Source: a virus (taxonomy: Duplodnaviria; Caudoviricetes). Taken from it: DNA of 46,443 nucleotides. Below, piece by piece: positions 8,816-39,571 of this stretch. Made by a program: the position numbers and the translations under genes. The stretch lies in IMG/VR virus record IMGVR_UViG_3300039916_000015, positions 1 through 46,443 of that record, one strand, 5' to 3'. How positions within the stretch are numbered: the first letter of the stretch is position 1; each line of letters opens with the position of its first letter. The notes beneath the pieces were generated by a model. It was given only the letters and a program-made list of their open reading frames with translations, did not search any database and was not told the DNA's origin.

Positions 8816-9286
8816 TCAGGCGAAGGCGCGCAGGGCCAGGACGGCCGTCGCGATCAGAATGGCGAGGATGAGGAAGCGGCCGCCGGCGCCGTTCGGCCGC
8901 GGATCGAGCGGTCCGCCATTGGGCGGGCGGCGATCCGCCTGGTCGGCGGCGGTATCCAGCCGGAAGGCGGTCATCCAGCCACCGGCGATGCTGTTGTCGG
9001 CGCGCAGGGCGTTTGCGACGGCGCGCGCCTCGGTCGGCGTCAGCAGCCGATCGTAACCGGGCATGACGACAGCGACGCGCATTTCGCGGGCGACGTTGCG
9101 GGCGGCGAGGATGCAGGGGTCGTGGAGGCAGGACGCCTCCAGGGCCAAAACGCAATCCGCGACGCGGTCGACGCCCGGGCGGGCCGATCGGGCCACGACA
9201 GCGTCGACGCGATGCGCCAAGCGCAGGGTTGAACCGAGAGACAGGTGACGAACCGGGTTCGTCGGATAGGGCAGGACATTGGTCAT
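8816..9286 (-). CDS. Hypothetical protein with C-terminal TM segment; first gene of the leftward operon
   Basis: GGGAG RBS upstream; C-terminal FLILAILIATAVLAL. Confidence 0.65.
   Translation of the reverse strand: MTNVLPYPTNPVRHLSLGSTLRLAHRVDAVVARSARPGVDRVADCVLALEASCLHDPCILAARNVAREMRVAVVMPGYDRLLTPTEARAVANALRADNSIAGGWMTAFRLDTAADQADRRPPNGGPLDPRPNGAGGRFLILAILIATAVLALRAFA
9247..9263. repeat. Dispersed palindrome copy 1 (GACGAACCGGGTTCGTC)
   Basis: 8-bp inverted arms around a central G; the core recurs at 12985, 19838, 26309 and 39557. Confidence 0.85.
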
Positions 9287-9382
9287 GGCGCGGACACTCC
9301 CGTGGGTGGGTGTCCGCAGTGACCCGGCTACATCGGAGCCGGTGGCGGAGGGAGAACAACGCCTGTCGCTGCGGACAGGGCG

Positions 9383-9412
9383 AACATAGGCCCGGTAATT
9401 TTACCGCGTCAA
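9383..9412 (-). promoter_or_regulatory. pL-like promoter (TTGACG -35, TATGTT -10)
   Basis: Minus-strand TTGACG-N18-TATGTT with an operator in the spacer. Confidence 0.7.
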
Positions 9413-9434
9413 GCATAAACCGGTATTCTTACCG
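9393..9434. promoter_or_regulatory. OL operators: CGGTAATTTTACCG (9393-9406) and CGGTATTCTTACCG (9421-9434)
   Basis: 14-bp palindromes matching the three sites between cI and cro. Confidence 0.85.
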
Positions 9435-9470
9435 GGTGCGGGTGATGGTGGCTGATGGTCATCTGGGGCT

Positions 9471-9911
9471 ATGGGGCTCTCAGACGGATGGAAAGGTGTG
9501 GCGCAGGCGACGGGGTTGGCCGTTTTGGTCATCGTCGTTGTCGTGGGCGTCGCGATCGCCATTGAGGGGCCTCGCGCCTTCGAATGGCGGACGCCAGAAC
9601 CGACCGTGACCAATGAAACGACGGCGGCATCGGCTCTGGCTGAAAAGGTCCGACGTGGCCCCATCACGGATGCCCAGCACCGCAAGATGGAAGAGGCGCT
9701 GGTGAACCGCTTTCCAAAGGGCAGCAGGGTCGCCGATGGGAATGTGACGTTCTACTTCGACGGCGGCGCCACGGGGTGTGGAATGATCTCGCCTAGAGGA
9801 CAGGCACCCCGGCGTTACATCTATCGAAACGACTTCGTCATGGTCGAGGGCGACCAGTCGGCCTCGGACTTCGCAATGTTCTGGCAGATATGTGAAGCCG
9901 GCGGAGCCTAA
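9471..9911 (+). CDS. Membrane-anchored exported protein in the immunity region
   Basis: N-terminal TM LAVLVIVVVVGVAIAI, two Cys in the C-terminal domain; convergent with cI. Confidence 0.7.
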   Translation: MGLSDGWKGVAQATGLAVLVIVVVVGVAIAIEGPRAFEWRTPEPTVTNETTAASALAEKVRRGPITDAQHRKMEEALVNRFPKGSRVADGNVTFYFDGGATGCGMISPRGQAPRRYIYRNDFVMVEGDQSASDFAMFWQICEAGGA

Positions 9912-10529
9912 TCAGCGCGGCGTCATCCGCTTGACCTTCGCGGCCCACAAGATCTCCTGATCCAGCATCGGGCCTTCCAGGTTGGAAATGAGGTGGAACA
10001 GGCCGTTACTGGCTTGGCGCAACTTCTTCACCACGATCCGACCGTCCGGCAAACCAATCACGCACAGCTCGCCGATAAGGTCTGAAGTGACGGGTGAGCG
10101 CACGTCGTCCCAATAGACGAGCCAGGTGTCGAAGATCGGCCCAAGCGAATCGCCCCGGATCTCGGCCGCCACCGTCTGGGGCGTGCTACCTTCGGGTGCT
10201 GGAACCATGTCGAACGGGCCCTGTCCTGCGTCATACAGCACCGCGACGGCGCCCGCAGAGACGTAGCCAACGACTGGGACAGAATCGGTCGTGGGCTCAA
10301 CAAGCTCGTCTCCAGCCGCCTCCATGAGCCATGCGACGGTCGTTTCCAAAACCGGCGCGAGCGCGGTCAGGGTCTTGGTCGACGCGCCATTTCGAGCGTC
10401 ATTTTTGACCGCGCGCTCCATGTTCCGAATGGCGTCCTCACTCAAGCCCGCCTCAAGCGAGGCGGCGCGCGCCGACTTCCCGAGGGCGTTGAGGCGTTGG
10501 TGAACGCGGGCGACAACTTCTTTCAACAT
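9912..10529 (-). CDS. cI: CI-like repressor (HTH plus S24 autopeptidase)
   Basis: HTH SARAASLEAGLSEDAIRNME; cleavage site VSAG; IRGDSLGP (Ser) and VVKKL (Lys); start ATG 10529 within track ORF 9912..10841. Confidence 0.92.
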   Translation of the reverse strand: MLKEVVARVHQRLNALGKSARAASLEAGLSEDAIRNMERAVKNDARNGASTKTLTALAPVLETTVAWLMEAAGDELVEPTTDSVPVVGYVSAGAVAVLYDAGQGPFDMVPAPEGSTPQTVAAEIRGDSLGPIFDTWLVYWDDVRSPVTSDLIGELCVIGLPDGRIVVKKLRQASNGLFHLISNLEGPMLDQEILWAAKVKRMTPR

Positions 10530-10533
10530 CGTT

Positions 10534-10605
10534 CGGTAATCTGACCGGACACCGGGGTGACGACGACCGGTAAGATAACCGTTGACGGGTGCGGTAAAAT
10601 TACCG
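10534..10605. promoter_or_regulatory. OR operators: CGGTAATCTGACCG (10534-10547), CGGTAAGATAACCG (10568-10581), CGGTAAAATTACCG (10592-10605); pR -35 TTGACG at 10582-10587
   Basis: Three related palindromes between divergent cI and cro, lambda-like layout. Confidence 0.85.
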
Positions 10606-10616
10606 ATCAATGGGGC

Positions 10617-10946
10617 ATGGATTTCATCGCATCCCTTATCCGGGCCGCCGAAGCGTTTCGCGAGGCCACCGGACTCGAGCGAACAACTGTCAGCTGGCGG
10701 TTGTTCGGCGATAGCAAGAAGCTCGACGCCTTGATCGCGGGGAGCGACATCCAGGTCCGCCGCTATGAGGGGGCCATGGCCTGGCTGTCCGGCAACTGGC
10801 CGGAGGCCGTCGATTGGCCGGAAGGTGTGGTTCGTCCGCATGGAGGTGGCCCGCTGTCGTCTGATGACGAGGTTGTGGCGCCGGGCGCGGATGGTGGCGC
10901 CGAGAAAAGCTTGGCCGTTTTCTCCCCGGCGGAGGATGCGGCATGA
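10617..10946 (+). CDS. Cro-like regulator
   Basis: Divergent from cI; TVSWRLFGDSKKL...AMAWLSGNWPEAVDWP pattern typical of alphaproteobacterial prophage Cro-like proteins. Confidence 0.75.
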   Translation: MDFIASLIRAAEAFREATGLERTTVSWRLFGDSKKLDALIAGSDIQVRRYEGAMAWLSGNWPEAVDWPEGVVRPHGGGPLSSDDEVVAPGADGGAEKSLAVFSPAEDAA

Positions 10947-11410
10947 GCGGCGTTGAACCCAACCGCTGGCTGAAGCTGAAAACGAAGCTGCTGATCAAGG
11001 CCTGCGGCGGACTTGAGGAGGCCTCAGCCGCCTGCGCAGCGTCTTGCCGGCCGTATTCGGTGCCGCATCTGTCGCGGTGCCAGCGTCCCGATACGCCCGA
11101 CTTCCTGCCGATCGACATCGTCCTGTGCCTAGAAGCCTATTGCGGCGAACCGATCGTCACCGCCGCCATGGCCGAGGCCCGTCCGGCCGGGGACGCAGTC
11201 GGCTGCTTGCGCGACGAGGTCGCCGATTTCATCGAGCGCGGCGGCGACGTTTCCAAGGCGGTTCGGGCTGCCTTCGCCGACGGGGTGATCGACCCGCGCG
11301 AAGGCGCCGAGATCGGCGTGATGCTGGATGCCGCCTTCCAGGATTTGCATCAGGCGCGCCAAGCCTTGGCGGACGCCATGCGGCCGAAGGATGCGGCGGC
11401 GGCGCGATGA
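10943..11410 (+). CDS. CII-like phage regulatory protein
   Basis: Position after cro; FLPIDIVLCLE and AFADGVIDPRE motifs. Confidence 0.65.
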   Translation: MSGVEPNRWLKLKTKLLIKACGGLEEASAACAASCRPYSVPHLSRCQRPDTPDFLPIDIVLCLEAYCGEPIVTAAMAEARPAGDAVGCLRDEVADFIERGGDVSKAVRAAFADGVIDPREGAEIGVMLDAAFQDLHQARQALADAMRPKDAAAAR

Positions 11411-11649
11411 GGGACAATAGCTTCCACACCGGCCTGGGTCTTTGCCCGACGACGCCGACGAAGGACATGGCGGCCTTTGACGCCCTGCCGCCGATGGTGC
11501 GGGCGCGATTGCGCGAAGCCCCGATCAAGGTCGCCAGCGAGCCGCTGTTGAGGTTCTGGCGATCGGACGTCGGCGACGCGTCGACGCGCCATGCCGCCCT
11601 GATCGACGGGCTGGATCGCAAGCTGGGTCAGATGGGAGCGGCGGCATGA
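11407..11649 (+). CDS. Hypothetical protein (DUF6525-like)
   Basis: MAAFDALPPMVRARL motif; ATGA coupling at both ends. Confidence 0.6.
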   Translation: MRDNSFHTGLGLCPTTPTKDMAAFDALPPMVRARLREAPIKVASEPLLRFWRSDVGDASTRHAALIDGLDRKLGQMGAAA

Positions 11650-12493: not shown

Positions 12494-12530
12494 GCACGAT
12501 TCTTGATGGCGCTATCGGCCGGTGGCCTAC

Positions 12531-13184
12531 ATGAGCGCCGGTGGATTTACCGCCGGCCATGTGGCGCTGGCGGTCGTGGCGGCGTGTCGGATGACGGGGG
12601 CCGATCCTCAGGGCGTTTTCGGCCCGGCGCGCGGCAACAAGCGGGTTCGGTTGATTGCGGCGGCCGGGTTGATGTCGGCGCTGAAGCTGAAACCAAAGGA
12701 TGTCGCCACCGTCTTCCAGGTCGATGCGACCCGGCTTGCCCCCTCGATGCTGCGCAGTGCGGACATCGAGGCGGACCAGCTGCTGACCATCGCGGAGGCG
12801 CTGCGCGGCGGCGGTTTGCTGGACGACGCGCGCCCACAGGAGAAGGCGGCGGACGCGGATGCGTCGGCGCGTAAGCCCTCGCCGGTTCAGACGCGCCCTC
12901 ATCGCCCAGCGGATCCGCCGCCTGCGACTATGCCGGCTTCGCCTGTCATCCCGCGTGATCCCGACCGGCTCCGCCCTGTCGCGGCGAACCCGGTTCGTTC
13001 GCGGCCGTCGCCGGCGCGATCGAGCGCGGTCGAAACGCTGAAGGCCGTTAGCGACAATATCGTCCGATGGTCGCGGATCTACGTCTCGCGCGGCGTGCCC
13101 ATCGGCGACCTAGCCGACCTGTTCGACGTCGATGTCGAGGCGCTTGCGGATCGTCTGAAACCCGAACTGGCGAGGGCGGCATGA
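12531..13184 (+). CDS. Two-HTH protein; N-terminal domain resembles DnaA domain IV
   Basis: VVAACRMTGADPQGVFGPARGNKRVRLIAAAGL...KDVATVFQVD; Pro-rich linker; C-terminal HTH VPIGDLADLFDVD. Confidence 0.55.
   Translation: MSAGGFTAGHVALAVVAACRMTGADPQGVFGPARGNKRVRLIAAAGLMSALKLKPKDVATVFQVDATRLAPSMLRSADIEADQLLTIAEALRGGGLLDDARPQEKAADADASARKPSPVQTRPHRPADPPPATMPASPVIPRDPDRLRPVAANPVRSRPSPARSSAVETLKAVSDNIVRWSRIYVSRGVPIGDLADLFDVDVEALADRLKPELARAA
12985..12997. repeat. Dispersed palindrome copy 2 (CGAACCCGGTTCG)
   Basis: Exact 13-bp core, in the Pro-rich linker of 12531..13184. Confidence 0.8.
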
Positions 13185-16975: not shown

Positions 16976-17034
16976 GTTGTCGGACGGGAACGCTAAGTGC
17001 ATCCGTTCCCTCACTTCCAGAGCTGCGACCCCAG

Positions 17035-17847: not shown

Positions 17848-19997
17848 CGGAGCCGATTGTGGGAGCAGGGGCGGCCCCTCTTCTCCTGGCGCTGGCTCGC
17901 GCCGCTGAACCCAAAAAGGACCGGCCGCCTTGGGAATGGGCGGAAGGTCGCATCGTGATCCCGGCCGAGGCGAACACCTCACGACCAGGCCCTTTGTCGT
18001 GGGAAGGTTTCGAGTACTGCCTGGAGCCGCTTGAGAAGCTCGATTACAGCTGCGCCGCGCCGCGCGTTCCGATCATGGCGGCGGGCCAGACCGGCAAGTC
18101 GAACATCGGCGTCGTCTGGGTCGCCTGGACAATCGTCGAACAGCCGCGCCCGATGGGCTTGGCGGTGCCGTCCCGGCCGAAAGCGTCGGCGTTCAACTCG
18201 AAGAAGCTGCAGCCTGTCATCGACAAGACGCCCGATCTATCGGGCGGCGGGCCGGAGGAACTGCCGGCGCTGGTGAACGCCGAGACCTCGACGTCATCAC
18301 AAAAAAATTATCCAGGCGGCGCACTGACGATCTTCTCTGCCGGGTCGGTCAACGACCTCCAATCAGAATCGTTCGGCGCTGTGTGGATCACCGAGTCGCC
18401 GAACTTCCTTCAGGACGTGGGCGGCCGTGGCTCTGCGATGACGCAGATCCGTGTGCGTATGGATGGCTGGGAGGCCGTCGGCACGAAGGAGCTTCATGAG
18501 AGTACGCCCGGCGAAGAGGGGTCGTGCCCCGTCTCGGCGGACTTCGACGCGGGGGATCAGCGTCTGCTCTATCTCCCGTGCCCGCATTGCGATCAGGCAT
18601 TCACGATCGAGTTCGACGACTTCGTTGTTCCCGACAATCCTCATGAGGAGCCGCACGTCATCCCGCCCTGTTGCGGCGACGTCCTGGGCGCGGTCATCGA
18701 AGAGCGGCACATGCCGGCTCTCAAGCGGAGAGTACGCAATCGGTTGGTCGCTGAGAGGATCGGGGTCGTCATCGACGACGACTCCTCGGCCGCTGGTTAT
18801 CTTCCGACATTCGTCTCCGAGAACCCAGCTAACCCAGCGCCGGGTCGGTTCGTCCCTAAGGCGTTGTTCAGCCAGTGGCGAGCGCGTGACACTGAGGGCC
18901 GCAATCCGAGCTACCACTTCTGGCAGATCGTCTCGCCGCTGAAAACGTGGCGCGGTCTGGCGCAGGACTGGCGCGACGCCAAGGGGAAGCCGACTGAGGA
19001 AGCGGCGTTCCGACAGCAGAAGCTGGGGCGGCCGACCGAGGCGGCGATCAAGGCTCCTGGGCACTCGGACATCTACCAGGCTGCGCTGGTGTTCGGTCGC
19101 CGGCGTGGCGAAATCCCGCCGGGCACCTGCTGGCTGTCAGGCCAGGCGGACATTCAAGGCGATCGGATCGAGTGGACGGTCATGGCGCACGGACCGTCGT
19201 TCCGGGCGCGCATCGATCGCGGCGTCATCGAAAAGGATCCGCTGAGCGTCGAAGCCTGGGCCGATCTTGGCAAGGTTCTGGCCCGGCGATGGGAAGGCCC
19301 TGAATGCAGGCCGATTGGACTGGACGCCTTTGGCGTCGACTCGGGCGGCGCGGACGGTGTGACGCCTCGGGCCTATGAGTTCGTTCGCGGTCGGCATAAC
19401 TGCTACGCCATCAAGGGTGCATCGACTTCCCTGCCGCTGCCGACTGATGTCAGTCGTCTGAAGGGCAAGGATACCCGAGGCCGGACGATCAAGGTCTCGC
19501 TTCTGCGCGTCGATACTTACGTCTTCAAGAAGTTCACGGCGTATAGCCTTCGCAACCTGGTCGCCGGCGCAAACACGAAGCCCGAGCCGACGATCATGCC
19601 GGGCACCGTCCTCTATGAGGACGACGCCACGGAAGAGGATTTTCGTCAGCTCACGGCCGAGGCCTTCAAACGCCCCGCCGGAGCGAAGCCGGGGCAGCGC
19701 GGCGAATGGGTGAATGTCGATAGCCGAGCCAACGAGCAGCTCGATCTCGACGTCTATGCCCAGGCGCTCGCCTACCAGAAGGGCCTTCAACGCTGGGACG
19801 CTGCGCGCTGGGATCAAGAGTTCCATGCCCGCGCTCGCGAACCGGGTTCGTCAGAGACGCCCAACCTGTTCGATGCGCCCCCGCCTCCGGTCGAGGATGA
19901 GGGGCCGCAAGCGCCGCGTGCGGCCGAAGTCGGCAATCGTCGCGCCGCCGCGCCAGCCCGCCGTCGGCAAGTCCGAAGCGGATACATGGGAGCCTGA
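17844..19997 (+). CDS. Terminase large subunit (lambda gpA family)
   Basis: Walker A AAGQTGKS, ESTP, GDQRLLYLPCPHC, ADIQGDRIE, VDSGG, NEQLDLDVYA. Confidence 0.95.
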   Translation: MTEPIVGAGAAPLLLALARAAEPKKDRPPWEWAEGRIVIPAEANTSRPGPLSWEGFEYCLEPLEKLDYSCAAPRVPIMAAGQTGKSNIGVVWVAWTIVEQPRPMGLAVPSRPKASAFNSKKLQPVIDKTPDLSGGGPEELPALVNAETSTSSQKNYPGGALTIFSAGSVNDLQSESFGAVWITESPNFLQDVGGRGSAMTQIRVRMDGWEAVGTKELHESTPGEEGSCPVSADFDAGDQRLLYLPCPHCDQAFTIEFDDFVVPDNPHEEPHVIPPCCGDVLGAVIEERHMPALKRRVRNRLVAERIGVVIDDDSSAAGYLPTFVSENPANPAPGRFVPKALFSQWRARDTEGRNPSYHFWQIVSPLKTWRGLAQDWRDAKGKPTEEAAFRQQKLGRPTEAAIKAPGHSDIYQAALVFGRRRGEIPPGTCWLSGQADIQGDRIEWTVMAHGPSFRARIDRGVIEKDPLSVEAWADLGKVLARRWEGPECRPIGLDAFGVDSGGADGVTPRAYEFVRGRHNCYAIKGASTSLPLPTDVSRLKGKDTRGRTIKVSLLRVDTYVFKKFTAYSLRNLVAGANTKPEPTIMPGTVLYEDDATEEDFRQLTAEAFKRPAGAKPGQRGEWVNVDSRANEQLDLDVYAQALAYQKGLQRWDAARWDQEFHARAREPGSSETPNLFDAPPPPVEDEGPQAPRAAEVGNRRAAAPARRRQVRSGYMGA
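19836..19854. repeat. Dispersed palindrome copy 3 (core CGAACCGGGTTCG, 19838-19850)
   Basis: Reverse complement CTGACGAACCCGGTTCGCG is identical to 39553-39571. Confidence 0.85.
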
Positions 19998-26276: not shown

Positions 26277-26570
26277 ATGACCAAATCCGTTGCAAATGCC
26301 GGCGCCGACAAACCCGGTTCGTCAGTTCCACCGGAACGCGATCCCTTGGATCACGACGGAGATGGCCGCAAAGGCGGCGCCGCGCCGGTCCCGGCGGTCC
26401 AGCATCTCGCCGTCGTCAAGGATGACGCCGAACACGGCCTCTCCCATGGCCAGGTGATCGGCGTCTCCGACGACGATGCCAAACTGCTGCTGGCGACCGA
26501 CAGCGTCCGCGTCGCCACCGACGTCGAGGTCGAGCTGGCCCAGCCCTTCGTCCGTCTCTGGACGGCCTGA
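26277..26570 (+). CDS. Hypothetical virion-module protein
   Basis: AAGGAG RBS; DPLDHDGDGRKGG motif. Confidence 0.7.
   Translation: MTKSVANAGADKPGSSVPPERDPLDHDGDGRKGGAAPVPAVQHLAVVKDDAEHGLSHGQVIGVSDDDAKLLLATDSVRVATDVEVELAQPFVRLWTA
26305..26325. repeat. Dispersed palindrome copy 4 (core CAAACCCGGTTCG, 26309-26321, one mismatch)
   Basis: Reverse complement TGACGAACCGGGTTTGTCGG matches copy 1 TGACGAACCGGGTTCGTCGG at 19/20. Confidence 0.8.
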
Positions 26571-26595
26571 CCTTCCCCTAACCGGAGCTTCCGCC

Positions 26596-27585: not shown

Positions 27586-28424
27586 TGCAGCCCAAGCATG
27601 ACGCCTGGGCGCCGGCCGAACCGGAATGGGTCCGGCTGGCGCCCGGCGTCAAATGGCTGCTCCGACGCCCGGACGGCGCCGACAAGATGGTGGTGTCCTC
27701 GGACGTCTCCCAGATTATGTCGCGCATCTATCAAGGTCGCGCCGAGCTGGAGGCGCTGGGCCTCGAAAACGAGATGGGCGGGGGCGACCACGTTCTCAGC
27801 CTTGATCAGATCATGGGTTACAGCTCGCTGCTGACGGCGAACCGCTATGCCCGTCTCTGTCTGCTGGACTGGGAGGGCATCGACCATCCCGAAACCGGCG
27901 AGAAGCTGGACCCTACCGATCCTGACGCCGTCCACGACGCCCTCGTCTTCGGCGCCCCGGGCGGCGGGTCGCCCTTGCTGTCGCCCTTCCTGGCCTGGAT
28001 CGACCAGCCGCGCCGGCCCATGGGCGCAGAGACGGTGCGTCTTCGCGCCCTGGCGAAGGATCATTGGAGCGGCGGCGCCGAGCGTTGCCGAACCTGCGCC
28101 GACGAATCCGATCCCTGCGCAAAGGGCGGTTCGATCGAAGGCGAGATCTGCCCGCGATTGAAGAACACGCCTCTGACGCCTGAGGGGGTCGCGGCGTGGG
28201 AGATCACCAGTGGTGCGGCCGGACTGTGGGAGCGCGGAGGCATGTCCGGCGTCGTGACCGGCCTTCACTACCGCGACGCCTTGCTGGTCTTCGAGGCCCA
28301 GTTCGCCGGCGGGCGCGAGCCCTTGGATTTCGGCGCCGCCTTCACCGCCTTCCGCGCGATCGAGGCGGGCCGCCTGGAAGCTGAGGCTGAACAGGCCAAG
28401 GCCGAAGCCGACCTGAAGGACTGA
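27585..28424 (+). CDS. Tail assembly chaperone (G and T-like halves in one ORF)
   Basis: LLDWEGI motif; C-terminal GGMSGVVTGLHY; between tube and TMP. Confidence 0.65.
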   Translation: MQPKHDAWAPAEPEWVRLAPGVKWLLRRPDGADKMVVSSDVSQIMSRIYQGRAELEALGLENEMGGGDHVLSLDQIMGYSSLLTANRYARLCLLDWEGIDHPETGEKLDPTDPDAVHDALVFGAPGGGSPLLSPFLAWIDQPRRPMGAETVRLRALAKDHWSGGAERCRTCADESDPCAKGGSIEGEICPRLKNTPLTPEGVAAWEITSGAAGLWERGGMSGVVTGLHYRDALLVFEAQFAGGREPLDFGAAFTAFRAIEAGRLEAEAEQAKAEADLKD

Positions 28425-28428
28425 ACGC

Positions 28429-30930: not shown

Positions 30931-31853
30931 TGGCGAATGGTCTGTGGAATGCCGGCTTTCTTCAAGGCTCCGATCGCTGGGTCACGGTCGGCGGCGGCGC
31001 GCTGACCGTCGATGAAACCCTTCGGGGCGCGCCCGGGCGAGCTGTCCTTAAGGCCTCTCGATTGGCCGCGACCGTTGGCCTCACCGCGCCGGTCGAGCCG
31101 GCGACCGCCGATCGCGTCGCGGTCGCGGCCGGCGACGTCGTGGAGTTCTCGGCCGGCGCTCTGGGCCTGCTGGGCGTGGTGGAAGCGCCAACCGCGCCGC
31201 GCGCCTGGGCGGTCTTTTACAACGCGGCTGGCGCGACGTTGGAAACCCGACCGCTGGTCGTCCGTCCGCCCGAGGTTACGGCCCACGGTCTGGGTCTCGC
31301 CGGCGTTCGCGCCAGCTTCTACGGCATTCAGCAACGGGAGACAGCGCCGGCGGGCGCGGCGAAGGCCACGATGCGGATCGAGGCGGTCTCGACCGCCGCA
31401 AACCAGACCGTCGCGGCGCTGTTGCTCAAGCCGATGGTGACGAAGGTCTCGGCGTCACGGCTATTGCCGCTGCCTTGGACGCCCGGTCAGCATGACAACG
31501 CCGATTTGGTGTTCACGGCGTGGCCCGAGATCCTGCGGCCCTTCCGGGCTGGCGCTGGCGGCGAGGTCCAGCCCGGAAGGGTCGAGTATCAGGCAGGGGC
31601 GGGGCGGCCGAAGTCGCGACGCCTAGCTTTGGACCCCGTGCGCAAGTTTATGGGCCAGGTGCGATGCGACGGCATCGAACGCGCGGCCTTAGAGCAGTTC
31701 TGGCGCGAGGGGCCCGGCGACTTCTGGATCGTCGAGCCGGACACGGATCGCCTGTGCATCGCCAGTTGGACCGCCGACGGCGCGCCGATGATGGTCGAAC
31801 AACGCGGCCTGACGTGCATGATGCAGGTCGGTCTCTGGATGGAGACGGCCTGA
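30930..31853 (+). CDS. Distal tail protein with N-terminal carbohydrate-binding-like domain
   Basis: C-terminal GRPKSRR...LEQFWRE Dit-like; N-terminal NAGF...W beta-sandwich-like. Confidence 0.55.
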   Translation: MANGLWNAGFLQGSDRWVTVGGGALTVDETLRGAPGRAVLKASRLAATVGLTAPVEPATADRVAVAAGDVVEFSAGALGLLGVVEAPTAPRAWAVFYNAAGATLETRPLVVRPPEVTAHGLGLAGVRASFYGIQQRETAPAGAAKATMRIEAVSTAANQTVAALLLKPMVTKVSASRLLPLPWTPGQHDNADLVFTAWPEILRPFRAGAGGEVQPGRVEYQAGAGRPKSRRLALDPVRKFMGQVRCDGIERAALEQFWREGPGDFWIVEPDTDRLCIASWTADGAPMMVEQRGLTCMMQVGLWMETA

Positions 31854-32326
31854 TGGCTACGCCTGTCAGCGAAGACATGGTCGAGGCGGCTTGGCGTCGT
31901 GAAGAGGATCCTGTCGCCCAACTGATCGTCATCAGGTCCGACGCGAATCCCGAGCCGATCACCGTCACGGACTGGCCTGAAGGCATTACGTCCAACGGTG
32001 TCGACTATCCCCACTATCCGTTCGAGTTGGTCTGGCACGGCGCTAGCAAGGATGAGCCCTTCGGCAAGGGCAAGCTGACGATCGGCAATGTCGACAAGCG
32101 GATCGAAGAGGCGTGCGACGCCGCCTTGACGCCGCCTGAGGTCGATCTGTCGCTGGTCCGGGTTGAGGCTCCCGACGTGGTCGAGAAGGCCGTCCTGGGG
32201 GCCAAGGTGCCTAACGTCGAGGGTGACGCCATGCGGGTGAGCGCCGTGATCCGGCCGCGCGACTTCAGCGAGGAACCGGCCTGTGCTGTGAAGTATGTTC
32301 CCTCGACCGTGCCGGGCATGTTCTGA
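31853..32326 (+). CDS. Minor tail protein (DUF1833/gpL-like)
   Basis: YPFEL...LTIGNVD...APDVVE...PGMF; TGATG-coupled start. Confidence 0.75.
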   Translation: MATPVSEDMVEAAWRREEDPVAQLIVIRSDANPEPITVTDWPEGITSNGVDYPHYPFELVWHGASKDEPFGKGKLTIGNVDKRIEEACDAALTPPEVDLSLVRVEAPDVVEKAVLGAKVPNVEGDAMRVSAVIRPRDFSEEPACAVKYVPSTVPGMF

Positions 32327-32328
32327 CC

Positions 32329-32781
32329 ATGGAGATGGTGGTGCCGGCAGACCTGGAACACCAGGTCGCGGCGCTGATCGGCGTTCCCTTCCGGGTCAAG
32401 GGCGATGACTTGGACGGTTGGGACTGCCGGGGCTGCGCGCGCTGGTGTCTCAAACATCTGTGCGGCGTGGACGTGCCTAACTATCTCGACCTCTATGCTT
32501 CGGCGATCGTCGCCGTATCTGGGCGGCGCGAGCGCGCTCGTTTGCTGGGCGAAGGTCTGGCCCAGACTTGGCGGCCTGTGCCGCCCCAAGCTGGGGCCGT
32601 CGCCCTTCTGTCCTGGCTCGGATCGGCCGGGCATGTCGGCTTCATCCTCTCGCCGACCAGAATCCTTCACGCGGACATCCGCGTCGGAACGGCGGTGCTG
32701 GATCTCGACGATCCGGCCGCCGCCTACAGGCTGAGGGGCGCATTCGTCCCGGCCTTCGTCACAGACATTCGCCACGCCTGA
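32329..32781 (+). CDS. NlpC/P60 tail assembly protein (gpK-like)
   Basis: IGVPF...GWDCRG (Cys), GHVG (His), ILHA. Confidence 0.85.
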   Translation: MEMVVPADLEHQVAALIGVPFRVKGDDLDGWDCRGCARWCLKHLCGVDVPNYLDLYASAIVAVSGRRERARLLGEGLAQTWRPVPPQAGAVALLSWLGSAGHVGFILSPTRILHADIRVGTAVLDLDDPAAAYRLRGAFVPAFVTDIRHA

Positions 32782-32809
32782 CGGCGCGGCCTGATTTTCG
32801 CGAGGTCCT

Positions 32810-35800
32810 ATGGCTGACGGCAGCGTTCCTATTGTGCTGTCGCCTGAGCCGTTCGCGCGCACCACGACCTATGTCGAGGCGCCTGCGGGCTGCACGGTGC
32901 GGACCATGCTGGCCTCGGCGATCACCCACGGTCATCTGAAGCTCGACGACCTGCCGCGCACGAACGTCTACGTCGATGGCCAGCGCATCGATCGCGAAGA
33001 GACGTTGTCACTCGTCCTGGCCGAGGGGCAAATCGTCAACGTCGTGGTCGAGCCGCTGGGCGGCGGGGGCGGCGGCAAGAAAGACATCGGTCAGATTCTG
33101 CTGACCATCGCCGTCATCGCCGTCAGCATGTGGGTCGGCGGGCCTGCCGGTCCGCTAAACGCATGGCCGATGCTGGCCCGACAGGTCGCGGCGGCGGCAA
33201 TCCTGACGGCCGGACAGATGGCGGTCGCCGCCATCTTCAAGCCGGAGACCAACGTCTCAAAAGCCAACGATCGCTACGCCCTGTCTTCGGCTTCGAACCA
33301 ATACCGCCAGTGGGGGTCGATGCCGCTGGCCTTGGGCGAGGTCGTGGTCGCGCCCGACCTGGCCGTGAAAACCTTCACCCAGGCGCAGGGAGAAGATCAG
33401 TGGATCTACGGCATACTCGGCCTTCACTACGGCCCCTGCACGGCCGAAGATCTGAAGATCGGCGACACGCTGGTCGATTCGATGGGCGCGGGCGATGTGC
33501 GGGTGGCCTATCACCTCACGCCTGGCCCTCGAACCTTCTCGATCGTCGCCAACGATACCGATCAGCTGGACCTGCAAGAGGAGCTGGCGGCGACGCCCGG
33601 CGGATCGACGCCCGTGACGCGCGCCGCTTCGGCCGAGGGCGAACGGTTCGAGTTCGACTTCTTCATGCCGCAGGGGCTGTATTTCGCGAAGGACGACGGG
33701 CGGAAGATCGGCGCGTCGCTCACCGTCACCATTCGCTATCGGCCCATCGACCAGAACGGCGTGCCGACCGGATCGGGCGCTTGGGCCAACGGCCTGACGA
33801 TTCCCCTGTCGTCGGCGTCCAGCGATCCATGGCGGATCATGCGCGCACTGACGCTGCCCTTGGGCCGGTATGAGTTTCAGGTTCAGCGGTCGAAGCTCGA
33901 GGACGACAACGCCAAGCGCAAAACCGACATCGGCTGGACAGCCATCCGCGCCATCGCCTTCCGCAAGCCGGTTCTGGACGAGACCCTTTCGCTGATCGAG
34001 TTCGCGGTTCGCGCGTCGGCCCTGAACCAGGGCAATCTTGCGCCCTTCACCTGCCGGATCACGCCCGTCTGCGAGACTTGGAGTGGCTCGGCGTGGGGCT
34101 CGCCTGCGCCCACCTCGAACCCAGCCGCGATCACGCGTTGGCTGATGACGGGTCCGGCGCCAGCGATTCCGCTGACAAAGCCTCAGGCGGATGTCGGCCT
34201 TCGCACTTGGGCGGCCCTGTGCGACCAGTATAATTGGAAGACCCACATCTATCTGACCGAGGACCGCAAACAGGATGCGGTCATGCAGCTTCTCGGCATG
34301 AACGGTCGGGCCAGCCTGTTCTGGGATGGGACGCAGCTGGTGTCCGCGCCGTGGGTCGAGAAGCCCGCGCCGCGCCAGCTCTTCGCCGGGTCGAACCTGA
34401 AGGATCACCGCTGGGAGATCGTCTATCCTGATCCGGTCCATGCGCTGCGAGTCGAGTTCCAGAACATCGATCAGGGCGGCGAGGCCGACGAAATCTACGT
34501 CTATGCCGACGGCTATGGCGAGACGGCTGACCCCGCCAACAACATCCTGCCGGCGACGCTGGTCGAGGCGCTGCGGCTGGAAGGTCAGCAAACGATCGAG
34601 CGCGCCTATCGCGACGGACGCTGGAACCTGGGCGCCCGGATGCATCAGCGCCGGGTGGACAGCTGGTCCACGGACATTGAGCACATCGTCTGCCGATACG
34701 GGGACCGGGTGCGCCTGGCCTGGGACCGCGTCGGCACCGCCAACGCGACGGTGCGCAATCGCCTCTGGTCCGGCGCCTTGGTGTCGGGTCTGCGGCTGAG
34801 CCAGCCGGTGCGGATGGAGCCGGGCCGGACCTATGCCCTGGACCTTCGTCTTCCCGATCAGGTCATCACCGGCGTGCCGATCGTCAATCCGGCGACCACG
34901 GCAGATGTCGTGACCCGCTCTATCCTGTTCGCGGACCTGCGCAACGCCAACGTCTCGCCGCGCGGCGGCGATCTGGTGGCCTTTGGCGAGCCCGAGCGGA
35001 TCAGCGAGGATGTCGAAATCATCGGGATCACGCCGGGCACGGACCTGACGGCGAACATGGTCGGCATCCGCTATGTCGCGCCGCTGCTGATGGCCGGCGA
35101 GACGGGGCCAATCCCGCCACTGCAAAGCCGCCTGACGCGCGACCGGGCCATGGACCCGCCCATGCCGACCCTGCTGGGCTGGCAGGCGAATGAAGAAGGC
35201 GTGCGCATCGGCTTCTCCATGCCGCCCTGGCGCGGATCGCCGATCACCGGGTTTACCGTCCGCTGGCGGCAGACGCCGGCGCCGGGTCAGTCGTCGGCGT
35301 GGCTGCAACTGCCGGACCTGCCGGCCAACGCCATGACGGCCGTGACCCCGCCGCTGCGTGAGTTGCCGGCCGAAAGCACGAACGTAACAAGCGCCCAGGT
35401 GCAGATCGTCGCCGTGACGGCCGACGGCCGCGCCTCGCCCGCCCTTCAGGTCACGGTGCAAGAGGCGGCTGTCGAGCAACCGCCCGAAGGCGACTGGTCG
35501 ATCACGCCGATGACGTCAGGCCCTGACGGCGCGCGCCAGTCAGGCTTCCTTGTGATCGGCACGGTCGCCAGCCTCAATGCGCGAAGGGTGACGGTCGAGT
35601 TCGGCGCGACAGCGGAGGGGCCGTGGGTCTCGGCCTTCGACGGCCCTCCAGTCGACGGCGTCGTGCGGGCGTCCATCGTCGGCGTTCAGCCCGGGTCGCA
35701 GAACTATATCGCGATCACCTACTGGACCGCGCAGGCTGTTGCGCCGAGCGAGCGGCTGATCCGCGGACCTCTCACGGCGCCGCCTTTGGTCGCTGACGAC

Positions 35801-38035
35801 ACGCTGAACATTGGCGGCCGCCCGACTCCGGTCGTGATCCAGCAGCTCGAAGACATCCTGATCGACGTGGACGCCATCGCGGTCGATGTCGGCGAGGCGC
35901 TAGAGCAGGCGTCCGAGGCGCGAACGCTGGCCGCCTCGGGGGGCTATGCGTCCATGAACCCCAACCCGGTGTTCGCAAAAAACTGGGACAGCGGGCAAAT
36001 CCCGCCCGACTGGCAGGACTGGGCGACGGGCTGGGACAACACGCGCGTTGCCGGCGTTGAGAGCCCCAACGGCTATCGCATCAGCGTGCCCGCCACAGGG
36101 ACCGTCACTCAGGCCGCGCGTGGCATCGCCCAGGCCGGCGGCGTCGGATCGCTGGGGACCGCTCAGGGCGAGGCCTGGTATGTCCAAGAACTGACGATCA
36201 AGCTGATCTCCGGCTCGCTCGTCGGCGCGGGCTCGCACATTCAGTTCTGGAACGGGACCGACCTCCTCGGGTCGACCAACATCAACTGCGCCGCTGACAA
36301 GCCGCTTGGGCAGGTCGCGCCCGGCGCAGGTATTCCCGGCCAGGTGTATCGCTACGCCAAACTGTTCAAGACGGCAGCGAACACGAAGACGATCGTTCCC
36401 TACGCCATGGCTTTCTGGGAGGGCTATTGGAACGTCGCGCCGGTCGCCAAGGACGTGGTCATCACGAAGTGCCTCATCCGCCCAGCGACAGCTGGCGAGG
36501 TCGAGGAAGCCGAGGCGCGGGGCTCCTATCCGTCGATCGAAGCGCGGCTGACGGATCAGAACAATGCCCTGATCTCCGCGACGGCGGCGCTGGCGACACG
36601 CCAGAGCCTGACCGAAGCGAAGGCCGTCACCTACCCGAACCTGCTGCCCAACTCGAATATGGCCGAGTGGCCGGCGAAGTGGGAAGCGCCAGCCTGGGCC
36701 TCCTACCCCCACAAGGCCTTCGGACCGCTCGCTTACTGCTCGGCGTCTGGCGACAACTACATGCTGACGCAGGACATCCCTGTGAACGGCGGGGACACGA
36801 TCACCGTGTCCATTGCGGGCGACCCCGGCTCTAACCCCGGCGGCGGCGGGTTCTACGTCCAGTTTCTGCACGCTAACCGGTCGGTGATCTCGGACGGCAA
36901 CGGGTTCAAAAACTACAACGGCATGAGCTGGGTGAACCGGCTTTCGACCACGTTCACCACGCACCCGGAAACGGCCTTCATCAAGATCGTCTTCTGGAAG
37001 GGCCCGACCCAAGACATCGTCCACATCGGCGGATCGGTCATGGTCAACTTCGGACCGGTGGCGTTGAACTGGAACGACGCCGCATCGGCGCGTGAGATCG
37101 CCGGGCGGGTGAAGACCAGCGAGGGCGTGCTCGCCACGGTCAGCGGCCGGGTAATGTCGTGGTTCGAGAAGCTGCTGCAGGCTGGTGATGGAACCGCATT
37201 CATCCAGGCCAAGGCGCTCGACGATAACGGTGACGTCACGTCGGAAGTGAACCTCGGCGCTCGCAAACTCGGCCTGTTCACCCAGATCGGGAACGGCTGG
37301 GTCGAGGTGCTGAAGGTTGTGGGCACGGCCGCCCACTTCGCAGGCAAGGTCTTCATCGGCGGGCTTCAAGAGATCACCCTCGACCCCGATCTGCCCGGCA
37401 TCGTTTGGAAGATCGGCGGGGCGAACCTTGTCATTGGGCGCCTGCCATATGACGGCATGATACTGTGGTTCGGCCCGGCCATGGCGCCGACATCGATGCG
37501 CAAAACCAATGCGACGATGTGGCTCGATAACGCCGGCAACGCCCGGTTTCTCGGGTCGATCTTTGCTGGCCGCTTGTCGAACAGCGTCCAGGGCACCAGC
37601 CTTATCGCGCCGTCGTCCTCGACGGTCGGCCCCTTCGTCACCGAGGGCGGGCCGATCAACATCGCATGGTCTTACAATTACTATCGCGAAGGCTTCCGCA
37701 TCGGGAACCAGGGCACGTCAGGCCAGAGCTGGGCGATCGTCAAGTTGTTCCAGACCATCGGCGGTGGCGCGGAGACGATGGTTTCACAGCAGACCATCAA
37801 CGGCTCCTCGTCGGCCGAGGTGGTGAACGTCGCCGATCCGTTCGAGCCTCCGTCCTATCAGACGACGCTGCGCGAGACGATCACCGGCAGCTTCACCTTC
37901 ATGGACACGGCTGGCGGCACAACCCCGCGCACCTATCGCATGGAAGTCACCGCCCGACAGAACGCCACGTTCGGCGGGAACCCCGCAGGCGACACCCAAA
38001 GCCAGCGCTCCAGCATCGTCACCAGCGAAGGATAG
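32810..38035 (+). CDS. Central tail fibre / host-specificity protein J with fused N-terminal gpI-like domain
   Basis: 1741 aa; SNPA, YGDRV, FN3-like region, two NPxF/NLLPN CBM-like modules separated by coiled coils. Confidence 0.9.
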   Translation: MADGSVPIVLSPEPFARTTTYVEAPAGCTVRTMLASAITHGHLKLDDLPRTNVYVDGQRIDREETLSLVLAEGQIVNVVVEPLGGGGGGKKDIGQILLTIAVIAVSMWVGGPAGPLNAWPMLARQVAAAAILTAGQMAVAAIFKPETNVSKANDRYALSSASNQYRQWGSMPLALGEVVVAPDLAVKTFTQAQGEDQWIYGILGLHYGPCTAEDLKIGDTLVDSMGAGDVRVAYHLTPGPRTFSIVANDTDQLDLQEELAATPGGSTPVTRAASAEGERFEFDFFMPQGLYFAKDDGRKIGASLTVTIRYRPIDQNGVPTGSGAWANGLTIPLSSASSDPWRIMRALTLPLGRYEFQVQRSKLEDDNAKRKTDIGWTAIRAIAFRKPVLDETLSLIEFAVRASALNQGNLAPFTCRITPVCETWSGSAWGSPAPTSNPAAITRWLMTGPAPAIPLTKPQADVGLRTWAALCDQYNWKTHIYLTEDRKQDAVMQLLGMNGRASLFWDGTQLVSAPWVEKPAPRQLFAGSNLKDHRWEIVYPDPVHALRVEFQNIDQGGEADEIYVYADGYGETADPANNILPATLVEALRLEGQQTIERAYRDGRWNLGARMHQRRVDSWSTDIEHIVCRYGDRVRLAWDRVGTANATVRNRLWSGALVSGLRLSQPVRMEPGRTYALDLRLPDQVITGVPIVNPATTADVVTRSILFADLRNANVSPRGGDLVAFGEPERISEDVEIIGITPGTDLTANMVGIRYVAPLLMAGETGPIPPLQSRLTRDRAMDPPMPTLLGWQANEEGVRIGFSMPPWRGSPITGFTVRWRQTPAPGQSSAWLQLPDLPANAMTAVTPPLRELPAESTNVTSAQVQIVAVTADGRASPALQVTVQEAAVEQPPEGDWSITPMTSGPDGARQSGFLVIGTVASLNARRVTVEFGATAEGPWVSAFDGPPVDGVVRASIVGVQPGSQNYIAITYWTAQAVAPSERLIRGPLTAPPLVADDTLNIGGRPTPVVIQQLEDILIDVDAIAVDVGEALEQASEARTLAASGGYASMNPNPVFAKNWDSGQIPPDWQDWATGWDNTRVAGVESPNGYRISVPATGTVTQAARGIAQAGGVGSLGTAQGEAWYVQELTIKLISGSLVGAGSHIQFWNGTDLLGSTNINCAADKPLGQVAPGAGIPGQVYRYAKLFKTAANTKTIVPYAMAFWEGYWNVAPVAKDVVITKCLIRPATAGEVEEAEARGSYPSIEARLTDQNNALISATAALATRQSLTEAKAVTYPNLLPNSNMAEWPAKWEAPAWASYPHKAFGPLAYCSASGDNYMLTQDIPVNGGDTITVSIAGDPGSNPGGGGFYVQFLHANRSVISDGNGFKNYNGMSWVNRLSTTFTTHPETAFIKIVFWKGPTQDIVHIGGSVMVNFGPVALNWNDAASAREIAGRVKTSEGVLATVSGRVMSWFEKLLQAGDGTAFIQAKALDDNGDVTSEVNLGARKLGLFTQIGNGWVEVLKVVGTAAHFAGKVFIGGLQEITLDPDLPGIVWKIGGANLVIGRLPYDGMILWFGPAMAPTSMRKTNATMWLDNAGNARFLGSIFAGRLSNSVQGTSLIAPSSSTVGPFVTEGGPINIAWSYNYYREGFRIGNQGTSGQSWAIVKLFQTIGGGAETMVSQQTINGSSSAEVVNVADPFEPPSYQTTLRETITGSFTFMDTAGGTTPRTYRMEVTARQNATFGGNPAGDTQSQRSSIVTSEG

Positions 38036-38041
38036 AGCCCC

Positions 38042-38368
38042 ATGGCAAAGAAAACTGAAGAGCAGTTGCGCACTGAACAGGCGGAACTGGCGGCGTCGAA
38101 GGCGGCCGTTGATCGCCAGATCGCCTCGCTCGAGTTGGGGAAGGTCCAGGCCTTCGTCGACGCCCTCGCAATCGTCATCCCAGCCGAGGGCCTGACCACG
38201 CTCGAGCTGGCCGCCAGCGGCCTGCCCGACTTCGCCGGGCGCTATGCCGCTAACCTAATCGACGTCTTCAAGGCCACGCCTTCGCTGATGGCGATGGAGG
38301 TCGATCGGCTTCAGCGCGCGGCTGCTGAACCGGTCGCGCCGCCTGTCCAGCCCGAGCCTGTCGCGTAA
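38042..38368 (+). CDS. Hypothetical protein
   Basis: Directly follows J; coiled-coil N-terminus. Confidence 0.7.
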   Translation: MAKKTEEQLRTEQAELAASKAAVDRQIASLELGKVQAFVDALAIVIPAEGLTTLELAASGLPDFAGRYAANLIDVFKATPSLMAMEVDRLQRAAAEPVAPPVQPEPVA

Positions 38369-38404
38369 CCCTCAACCCACCCCTGAAACCGAGAGACCAT
38401 CACC

Positions 38405-38548
38405 ATGGACCACAATCTGATCGCCATTGCCCTGATCGCTGCCGCTGTCATTGGAGCGGTCGTCTTCATCCGCAGCCGCTCGAAGCGCGCCAACAGCTCC
38501 GGCAAGCCCGGCGGCTCGCCCTTCGGCATCGATAACAACGAGCGCTGA
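38405..38548 (+). CDS. 47-aa single-TM protein (not in the ORF track)
   Basis: MDHNLIAIALIAAAVIGAVVFIRSRSKR...; GAGAG upstream; phage-like codon usage. Confidence 0.65.
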   Translation: MDHNLIAIALIAAAVIGAVVFIRSRSKRANSSGKPGGSPFGIDNNER

Positions 38549-38606
38549 TCCAACCAGTAAGCCGCCCAACGGCTGTTCCACCACGGCCTGACTATCGGAG
38601 ACCTCC

Positions 38607-39086
38607 ATGGCTCGTTTCATCCGCTGGGTGGCGGAACCCTTCACCGTGTTCGGGATCGGCGCCACGCTGAACCTGATCCTCAGCGCGGCGGCCTATGCCG
38701 GCGTAATCGGCGCCGACCGGATAGACCCGGATTGGGTCTTTCTGGCGGGCGCGGCGGGGGGCATCGTGTCCGCCCTGGTCCACGTGGGCGTCGTGTCCCT
38801 CGGGTCCGAACCGGCGACCTCGCGCGAGATCATGCGCGCGGTGATAGAGGGCCTGTTCGCGGTCGTCGTCGGCGCTCTGGTCGCCCGGTTCTGGGCCGCA
38901 CCTATCGCCCTGAGGCTGGCGCCCGACATCAACCCCTCCGATCTGCGCGCCATCGGCTTCGGGATCGGCATGGGGGCCTGGCGGTTTGCTCCGGGCCTGT
39001 TCGGGGCCGTCAAACTGCTCTCCAACCCCGCCACCCTCCGCGACCTGGCCCTGCGCTGGTTGGGCGGCACGCGGGCAAACACGTGA
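38607..39086 (+). CDS. Holin-like multi-TM protein
   Basis: About four hydrophobic segments; GGAG RBS. Confidence 0.55.
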   Translation: MARFIRWVAEPFTVFGIGATLNLILSAAAYAGVIGADRIDPDWVFLAGAAGGIVSALVHVGVVSLGSEPATSREIMRAVIEGLFAVVVGALVARFWAAPIALRLAPDINPSDLRAIGFGIGMGAWRFAPGLFGAVKLLSNPATLRDLALRWLGGTRANT

Positions 39087-39556
39087 CCTCCGCCGATATC
39101 GTCACCGTCATCGCCGCCGGCATCGTCGGCCTGACCGTCTTCGCGCGGGCGGAGGTGGTCTCGCCGCGCGTGCGAAGTTCCTACGCGAGCAATGTATTCG
39201 TGCGCTTCGGCATGGACGCGGTGGCGCTGGTGACGGTCTTCGTCATTTTCGAAATCTGCGGCGGCGGGCATGTGCTTGATGCTGTCGCCTGGTTCTTCGT
39301 CATCGCCGCGCTGACCTCGACCGCCATGCTGGTCAGCATGTTCGTGCATGACGGGCGCGAGGTGCTGGAGGTGCGCCGGGCGGAGACGCGAGCCGCCGAC
39401 GTTCAAGACATGAAGGAGGCTGTCGCCGAGACGGTGCCGCCAGTCGTCGAACGCTCGCTGGAAAAGGTCGTCACCGCCTTTGCTGAACCCGCGCCGGACT
39501 ATGATCGCCTGATCCGGGTCGAGCCCGTCCAGCCATCGCCGCCTACCGCCGACTGA
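39083..39556 (+). CDS. Three-TM protein (holin/antiholin-like)
   Basis: GTGA-coupled start; three hydrophobic segments, charged C-terminus. Confidence 0.55.
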   Translation: MTSADIVTVIAAGIVGLTVFARAEVVSPRVRSSYASNVFVRFGMDAVALVTVFVIFEICGGGHVLDAVAWFFVIAALTSTAMLVSMFVHDGREVLEVRRAETRAADVQDMKEAVAETVPPVVERSLEKVVTAFAEPAPDYDRLIRVEPVQPSPPTAD

Positions 39557-39571
39557 CGAACCCGGTTCGCG
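39553..39571. repeat. Dispersed palindrome copy 5 (core CGAACCCGGTTCG, 39557-39569), intergenic
   Basis: 19-bp identity with the reverse complement of copy 3. Confidence 0.85.

What the first reader, a model, noticed from the sequence alone, without database searches (positions are those of the whole stretch)
9247..39571. Genome-wide dispersed 13-bp palindrome CGAACC(G/C)GGTTCG: candidate parS/KorB-operator-like sites for the phage ParB
Seen: exact cores at 9249-9261, 12985-12997, 19838-19850 and 39557-39569, and a one-mismatch core at 26309-26321. Similarity extends beyond the core. Copies 3 and 5 share 19 identical bp (CTGACGAACCCGGTTCGCG), and copies 1 and 4 match at 19/20 (TGACGAACCGGGTTYGTCGG). 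Four copies are inside unrelated genes, in termini or linkers, and encode different peptides (TNPVR, ANPVR, REPGS, DKPGS), so selection looks DNA-level. A rough independent-base estimate at about two-thirds GC gives well under 0.01 expected copies. The motif differs from the CI operator, the iterons and the cos repeats. Established: RK2 KorB, a ParB CTPase, binds dispersed 13-bp TTTAGC(G/C)GCTAAA sites and silences genes at a distance, and phage N15 uses dispersed centromere repeats. Inference: a ParA-independent ParB clamp-loading system spread across a temperate phage genome, used for long-range transcriptional control, DNA compaction or protection, or tethering of the excised circle. Copy 1 lies in the first pL gene just upstream of parB, which fits autoregulation.
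Basis: partly seen in the sequence, partly recalled or inferred. Interest (0 to 1): 0.9.

Follow-up and report, generated by a model that had tools for sequence, protein, structure and literature searches.

The report
Phage ParB tags copied by satellites
This prophage carries five spread-out copies of a 13-base palindrome that are likely loading sites for its own ParB DNA clamp, and small integrated elements that lack ParB, likely parasites of such phages, carry the same words, likely to borrow the phage's clamp.

Summary
In detail: four exact copies and one near copy, against 0.004-0.02 expected. All six nearest parB-bearing relatives carry 5-9 copies, in unrelated modules. Sites cluster at the prophage (about 0.25 per Mb elsewhere in Brevundimonas) and are evenly spaced about 5.5 kb apart. 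One lies in or beside parB in 39 of 45 loci. Distant ParBs come with variant words (CGAACG, CGCACG, CGAGCG). Six ParB-less lambdoid regions hold 5 sites in 360 kb. There is no ParA, so this is not partition. New here: ParB-less satellite-like islands carry the words densely. Six of 7 primase-defined islands in the genus do, as does an unrelated capsid-forming island, and one island family has switched word class. Best reading: ParB coats phage DNA after induction, and satellites copy the tag to borrow it. Binding and function are untested. The scan noted phage ParB with dispersed palindromes on other DNA before; no listing there mentioned satellites.

The parts
9249..9261 (.). Site 1, inside the first leftward gene (TNPVR), 447 bp upstream of the parB start
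12985..12997 (.). Site 2, in a Pro-rich linker of ORF 12531-13184 (ANPVR)
19838..19850 (.). Site 3, near the 3' end of the large terminase gene (REPGS)
26309..26321 (.). Site 4, one-mismatch CAAACC variant near the start of ORF 26277-26570 (DKPGS); 21 bp kept in relative G002
39557..39569 (.). Site 5, directly after the TGA stop of ORF 38732-39556
6847..8802 (-). Orphan ParB, 651 aa: MarR-like winged helix (1-85), ParB_N with GERRWRA and ENxxR motifs, central ParB HTH (about 220-292), long C-terminal part of no known family
6431..6847 (-). Small gene that travels with parB (phrog_30753; 32 of 45 loci); candidate partner, function unknown
9383..9440 (-). Leftward promoter-like site (9412-9383) overlapped by CI-operator-like palindromes (9393, 9421); puts parB in the early leftward operon (inferred)
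9912..10841 (-). CI-like repressor ORF (real start probably near 10530); no tblastn hit in G001-G005, which keep the word
2088..3215 (-). Tyrosine integrase: an integrating prophage

Best explanation
The five palindromes are spread along an integrating lambdoid prophage and are likely loading sites for its own ParA-less ParB, which would close into CTP-dependent clamps, slide a few kilobases each way and coat the whole phage genome after induction or infection, while ParB-less satellite-like islands carry the same words, likely to capture that coat. Shown: the sites, their confinement, their even spacing, their linkage to parB, the word classes and the sites in islands. Inferred: binding by the central HTH (about 0.85), borrowing by satellites (about 0.7), and a protective or organising coat rather than promoter control (about 0.5). 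The coat would carry the variable C-terminal cargo (a MucR DNA-binding domain in several relatives) only to self-marked DNA.
For: ParB-type protein with invariant GERR and EN..R motifs in 65 homologues and best matches to Spo0J, Noc and KorB. 6 of 6 nearest relatives have 5-9 sites, in non-homologous modules, while CI is not detectably shared in the five aligned. In 4 of 5 host genomes 7 sites lie within 33-43 kb around parB. Genus scan: 11 of 18 genomes with this ParB have 6 or more sites, against 2 of 183 without, and both exceptions hold satellite-like islands. ParB-less lambdoid regions have 5 sites in 360 kb. Ten other ParB-domain loci have 0. Mean spacing CV is 0.38 against 0.80 at random in 19 genomes. 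A site lies within 1.3 kb upstream of the GERRWR codon in 39 of 45 loci, and 76 of 120 homologues encode the site's peptide in the linker. All three reading frames are used. Word class clusters on the ParB tree (12 changes against 27.7 shuffled). Two classes coexist in one genome, G202. The winged helix is missing in 7 of 45 site-bearing ParBs. R or K at residue 282 occurs in 20 of 28 CGAACC ParBs and 0 of 14 CGAACG ParBs. It aligns with the Noc arginine position (46) that reads a C:G pair (PMC7383237, passages). Island sites lie in core genes, 5 of 7 within 80 bp of the primase start.
Against: There is no binding, CTP or expression data. The 45 loci were chosen by ParB, so only the genus scan and prophage controls test the reverse direction. 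Related phages are not independent. Several ParB-positive genomes have 0-3 sites (G010 1, G013 1, G018 3, G155 2, G237 0 strict); remnants, contig ends or degenerate words explain the ones examined. The residue-282 rule could not be checked on 5 held-out ParBs because that helix did not align, and Thr occurs in both classes. 8 of 14 further primase loci in the family have no site. S084 has only hybrid words. In G202 the island's class differs from the resident prophage's. The companion gene 6431-6847 is nearly as linked as parB. No C-terminal function was identified for this ParB.
Confidence: 0.62

Rival explanations
1. The binder is the same ParB, but the job is transcriptional. The clamp slides to promoters and represses them (KorB/KorA-like, with the 6431 protein as lock) or activates or counter-silences them (BisD- or VirB-like). 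Satellites use it as a sensor of helper induction.
For: Site 1 is about 120 bp downstream of the leftward promoter. MucR DNA-binding domains are fused to several ParBs. An island site lies within 80 bp of the primase start in 5 of 7. Precedents: PMC11790492 (introduction and passages), PMC12409273 (passages), PMC10676424 (abstract).
Against: Most sites lie mid-operon and evenly spaced, whereas BisD uses two sites and spreads 50 kb (PMC12409273). The 6431 protein has no HTH by Pfam or model.
Confidence: 0.3
2. The satellites' sites are decoys that titrate helper ParB and interfere with the helper, not a borrowed benefit.
For: Island sites are denser (3-7 in 9-20 kb; 4 in 10 kb) than phage sites. 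Class switching would fit an arms race.
Against: Sites are spread singly rather than arrayed, and one is kept at the primase start. This suggests local use.
Confidence: 0.2
3. A different protein reads the word: the 6431 protein, CI, ParB's own winged helix, or a host factor such as LexA (GAAC half-site, recalled).
For: 6431 lies beside parB in 32 of 45 loci. The word occurs without parB in islands. The winged-helix RDxSNL motif is conserved.
Against: 6431 is undetected in 13 of 45 loci and the winged helix in 7 of 45. Near-identical winged helices go with different classes. CI has its own operator and diverges. Host chromosomes have about 0.74 sites per genome, and two classes coexist in one genome.
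Confidence: 0.1
4. The sites are centromeres for segregating an extrachromosomal prophage (N15- or P1-like), using host ParA or a polar anchor.
For: The protein belongs to the ParB family. Dispersed N15 centromeres are recalled (only titles seen in a reference list).
Against: No ParA among 54 proteins, and no Walker-A KGGxGK[TS] in six frames. ParB lacks the ParA-binding motif. An integrase is present and relatives are integrated. parB lies behind the CI operators.
Confidence: 0.07
5. The islands' sites are passive relics of captured phage genes, or the word is an RNA hairpin or protein motif.
For: Some islands carry homologues of the window's tail-chaperone, tape-measure or head-decoration genes.
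Against: Sites lie in island core genes, and in islands with no hit to the window's structural genes (S183, G440). Three frames and intergenic places are used. The one-arm variant mostly puts a mismatch, not G-U, in the transcript (8 against 2 by a rough gene caller).
Confidence: 0.05

Closest known systems
KorB-OB (with KorA) of plasmid RK2 (PMC11790492; introduction and passages read)
   Same: ParB-type CTP clamp with a palindromic operator acting at a distance; structural and profile match (8qa8, 8qa9, 1r71).
   Different: Integrating phage, no ParA/IncC, extra N-terminal winged helix and long C-terminus. Sites evenly spaced and mostly intragenic. No KorA-like HTH partner found.
BisD-bisS of ICEclc (PMC12409273; passages read)
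   Same: Orphan ParB on an integrated mobile element; odd-centred palindromes inside genes; extra C-terminal domain.
   Different: Two sites 2 kb apart with a BisC activator partner, against 5-10 sites across the whole element; no parasite copying described in the passages read.
VirB-virS (PMC10676424; abstract only)
   Same: Orphan ParB clamp on mobile DNA; the MucR-domain fusions point to a link with the alphaproteobacterial silencer (MucR's role recalled).
   Different: Counter-silencing was not tested, and the window's own ParB has no MucR domain.
Noc-NBS and chromosomal ParB-parS (PMC7383237; passages read)
   Same: Best sequence and fold matches; residue 282 aligns with the Noc specificity arginine.
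   Different: 13-bp odd palindrome; the N-terminus is a winged helix; acts on phage DNA.
Phage N15 SopAB with dispersed centromeres (recalled; titles only)
   Same: Dispersed palindromes on a temperate phage.
   Different: No SopA here; integrates.
PICI and cf-PICI satellites (PMC10085698; passages read)
   Same: The islands have an integrase, a small HTH gene, a primase and tRNA att repeats; one has capsid, portal, protease, TerL and HNH without tail.
   Different: Several carry tail-chaperone and tape-measure homologues, which PICI models forbid, and they carry helper-type ParB words, which I did not find described.

Membership tests
ParB-CTPase family | ParB N-terminal domain with GxxR and ENxxR motifs | tested here: met
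   PF02195 30.2 bits over cut-off 26.3; G171, E172, R173, R174, R176, E212, N213, R216 invariant in 65
ParB-CTPase family | Central ParB HTH domain | tested here: met
   PF17762 25.4 over 22.6; 6s6h Z 10.0, rmsd 2.4, 89 aligned
ParB-CTPase family | CTP binding, site-stimulated clamp closure and spreading | not testable with these tools
   needs biochemistry; some homologues bind ATP or GTP (PMC12704722, passages)
ParABS partition (incl. N15 Sop) | Co-encoded ParA ATPase | tested here: not met
   none among 54 proteins; no KGGxGK[TS] in six frames
ParABS partition (incl. N15 Sop) | ParA-binding motif (L/F/I)G(K/R)G(L/F/I) in ParB | tested here: not met
   two hits in the window, neither in parB; motif from PMC12704722
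ParABS partition (incl. N15 Sop) | Extrachromosomal maintenance | tested here: not met
   integrase; relatives lie inside chromosomes
KorB/KorA silencing | Dispersed palindromic operators confined to the element | tested here: met
KorB/KorA silencing | DNA-binding clamp-locking partner with its own operator | tested here: inconclusive
   6431 gene linked in 32 of 45; model has only weak PH-like matches, best Z 5.0, rmsd 3.9, 82 aligned
KorB/KorA silencing | Repression of promoters at a distance | not testable with these tools
   needs reporters or RNA-seq
BisD/VirB long-range activators | Activation or counter-silencing through an extra domain or partner | tested here: inconclusive
   window's C-terminus unassigned; MucR domain in some relatives
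Noc | N-terminal membrane-binding helix (recalled) | tested here: not met
   residues 1-85 model as a MarR-like winged helix, Z 9.4, rmsd 2.4, 77 aligned
PICI (for islands S133, S172) | Integrase, regulator, primase, att repeats | tested here: met
   PF00589, HTH_17 (not AlpA itself), DUF927; 40-43 bp repeats at tRNA-Ala (63, 118)
PICI (for islands S133, S172) | Small terminase and capsid-morphogenesis gene; no tail genes | tested here: not met
   no TerS hit inside them; tail-gene homologues present; so PICI-like only
cf-PICI (for G169:C224) | Integrase, capsid, protease, portal, TerL, HNH, no tail or holin | tested here: met
   51-bp repeat bounds a 10.1-kb element; head-tail connector not tested
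Phage satellites | Mobilisation by a helper phage | not testable with these tools
   inferred from gene content only

The most novel reading that the evidence does not exclude
A self-tag system in alphaproteobacterial lambdoid phages: the phage writes a ParB loading code every 5 kb so that a CTP clamp coats and licenses or shields only its own DNA. At least two unrelated satellite families forge the tag to use the helper's clamp, and this arms race drives the code through several classes.
Probability: 0.4. Interest if true: 0.92.

Novelty: new variant of a known kind. Interest (0 to 1): 0.8.

Why it matters
Orphan ParB-CTPase proteins are common on prophages, and their targets are mostly unknown (PMC12704722, passages). 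This gives a family with predicted sites in several classes and natural switch pairs, so binding, spreading and specificity can be tested at once. Satellites are known to hijack capsids, tails and repressors. Copying a helper's DNA-clamp loading code would be a new kind of hijack, and it implies the clamp does something valuable during lytic growth. Distinct ParB/site pairs could also serve as DNA-labelling tools.

Tried and rejected
Whole-collection scan for the 13-mer: not run, so its frequency across all viral contigs is open. Satellite primase in viral contigs gave no locus; the metagenome scan gave no answer. Complex prediction of ParB 1-560 with the 6431 protein: no verdict. RNA: no RNA holder listed. 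Atlas searches of ParB 295-560 and 485-635: only unnamed clusters under 0.9. Foldseek of the 6431 model: nothing at E<=0.001. Annotated phage collection: 12 weak ParB_N matches, none covering 80%. A broad degenerate pattern was dropped as too common (2.2 per 18 kb; also 94), and four strict classes were used instead. Two window ORFs (starts 10618 and 12490) were in the wrong frame in the query set, so their rows are void; 12531-13184 was redone and is present in only 12 loci. The tree's 'none' group included L069 and L074, later found to carry degenerate words. Unresolved site-bearing fragments without parB on the contig: G101:C40 (a family parB lies on C168), G169:C190, G226:C8. G136 and G177 clusters were not examined. 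4 of 15 terminase loci were not fetched. The host-factor, CI, partition, RNA-hairpin and passive-relic readings were rejected as under rivals. Literature: searches returned nothing; searches listed nothing on this phage family's sites or on satellites copying ParB sites (listings and abstract starts). Subscription papers and supplements (for example of PMC12704722) were not seen and could bear on novelty.
Full report
Observation. The window is a 46.4-kb lambdoid temperate phage record with integrase, CI- and CII-like genes, a replication initiator, lambda-type terminase, portal and capsid, and tail genes. Named homologues of its ParB come from Brevundimonas. CGAACC(G/C)GGTTCG occurs exactly at 9249, 12985, 19838 and 39557, and with one mismatch at 26309. 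Markov expectation for exact copies is 0.004-0.022, and no other odd 13-bp palindrome repeats. The CI-operator-like word is different.

The candidate reader. ORF 6847-8802 has ParB_N and HTH_ParB above Pfam cut-offs. Its GERR and EN..R motifs are invariant in 65 aligned homologues. A model (pLDDT 87.5) matches Noc, Spo0J, ParB and KorB, and residues 1-85 form a MarR-like winged helix. There is no ParA and no ParA-binding motif. The gene is second in the leftward operon, behind a promoter-like site overlapped by operators, so by lambdoid logic it is expressed on induction or infection (inferred). A 138-aa gene lies beside parB in 32 of 45 loci; its function stayed unknown.

Relatives keep the word. 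The six nearest viral relatives have 5-9 copies with controls of 0-1. In the five aligned, sites sit in swapped, non-homologous head and tail modules, and CI has no tblastn hit. Of 44 sites, a rough gene caller put 14, 10 and 7 in the three frames and 13 between genes; it miscalled at least three window sites. Spacing is more even than random: mean CV 0.38 against 0.80, 0 of 2000 simulations, in 19 selected and partly related genomes, with a median gap of 5.45 kb. A site lies within 1.3 kb upstream of the GERRWR codon in 39 of 45 loci, and 76 of 120 homologues encode the site's peptide in the linker after the winged helix.

Host and negative controls. In 4 of 5 host genomes 7 sites cluster within 33-43 kb around parB, with 1-2 elsewhere; G009 also has a 10-copy cluster in 1.1 kb, and G010, a remnant, has 1 site. 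Across 201 Brevundimonas genomes there are 233 sites: 97 in the 18 genomes with this ParB profile and 136 in the other 183. Six or more sites occur in 11 of 18 against 2 of 183 (my tally). Of 15 lambda-type terminase loci in profile-negative genomes I fetched 11. Five hid a distant family ParB and had 9, 9, 9, 3 and 3 sites of a variant class; six had none and held 5 sites in 360 kb. G050 shares the capsid module but not this ParB and has no site. Ten other ParB-domain loci have none.

The word changes with ParB. Distant members carry CGAACG-N-CGTTCG, CGCACG-N-CGTGCG or CGAGCG-N-CGCTCG, and G237, G047 and L074 carry degenerate forms. On a tree of 60 of 93 ParB cores the labels need 12 changes against 27.7 shuffled; kinship inflates this. 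All classes occur within Caulobacteraceae-like DNA, and G202 holds a CGAACC prophage and a CGCACG island together, which argues against a host reader. The winged helix is missing in 7 of 45 site-bearing ParBs, so the central HTH is the common part. Residue 282 is R or K in 20 of 28 CGAACC ParBs and in 0 of 14 CGAACG ParBs, and sister clades L051 (K) and L052/L056 (H) differ in class. It aligns with the Noc position at which arginine reads a C:G pair (PMC7383237, passages). The rule could not be tested on five held-out ParBs, so it is a lead.

Sites without parB. The two profile-negative genomes with six sites hold integrated islands. G133 and G172 have 18-kb elements at tRNA-Ala with integrase, HTH_17, DUF927 primase, 40-43 bp att repeats and some tail or head-decoration homologues, but no ParB; they carry 6 and 4 CGAACC sites. 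A primase search found 7 such islands in 201 genomes. Six have 3-7 strict sites and the seventh has 4 hybrid words, with none in 133 kb of flanks. S202 and S089 use the same tRNA and a 70% identical primase but the CGCACG class. In 14 further family genomes, 5 loci have 2-4 sites, a 1.7-kb fragment has 1 and 8 have none. G169:C224 is an unrelated 10.1-kb capsid-forming, tail-less island with a 51-bp repeat and 4 CGAACC sites. Island sites lie in core genes, 5 of 7 within 80 bp of the primase start, so they are not just relics of captured phage genes. That these islands are helper-dependent is inferred from gene content (PMC10085698, passages).

Mechanism. Established: ParB-type dimers load at a palindrome, close on CTP and slide (PMC11790492, introduction). 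Inferred: with a site every 5-6 kb, the clamps would cover the whole phage and stop near its ends. Partition is unlikely without ParA in an integrating phage. Promoter control remains a real rival (0.3), helped by MucR-domain fusions in several relatives. I favour a coat that protects or organises replicating phage DNA and delivers the C-terminal cargo to self DNA, because even mid-operon spacing fits coverage and because satellites replicating in the same cell copy it. The decoy reading of the island sites is not excluded.

Known and new. It works like KorB-OB, BisD-bisS and Noc-NBS, and belongs to the ParB family by sequence and fold, but fails ParABS membership. Ten paper searches found no account of this phage family's sites or of satellites copying ParB sites. 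Earlier unchecked notes of this scan describe phage ParB with dispersed palindromes on other DNA; a sequence look-up found none for this protein. Verdict: real, a new variant of a known kind, interest 0.8.

Noticed in passing
window 4292-5422 (-): The prophage encodes a full-length DNA polymerase III beta clamp (DnaN) in the same early operon as parB; detected in 10 of 45 related loci.
   Followed up: partly
L058, L029, L039, G237, G082, G170 ParB C-termini; P0042, P0045, P0046, P0063: Several ParBs end in a MucR/Ros DNA-binding domain; others end in different cargo domains.
   Followed up: partly
G133:C1 about 642.5-645.7 kb; G089:C80; G202:C40; G509:C1; G608:C12: PICI-like islands carry tape-measure homologues (some with tail chaperone or head-decoration genes), suggesting tail hijack or interference.
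   Followed up: partly
G169:C224:10560-20697: 10-kb capsid-forming, tail-less island at tRNA-Thr in Brevundimonas.
   Followed up: partly
G009:C30:356968-358075: Ten copies of the word, eight with an A/T centre, at spacings near multiples of 60 bp on the host chromosome; probably a repeat gene.
   Followed up: no
window 10-1188, 44535-45386, 45742-46443: Accessory genes at the ends: a HATPase-like protein (homologue also in island S089), an SDH/ClpP-like protease and an SRAP protein.
   Followed up: no
window 26310-39556: A 13-kb gap without a site across the tail genes, twice the usual spacing; may mark a recently swapped module.
   Followed up: no
L073, L078, L081, L082, L087: More distant ParB phage loci show other repeated palindromes (for example TTGCTA-N3, TAACCA-N3).
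   Followed up: no
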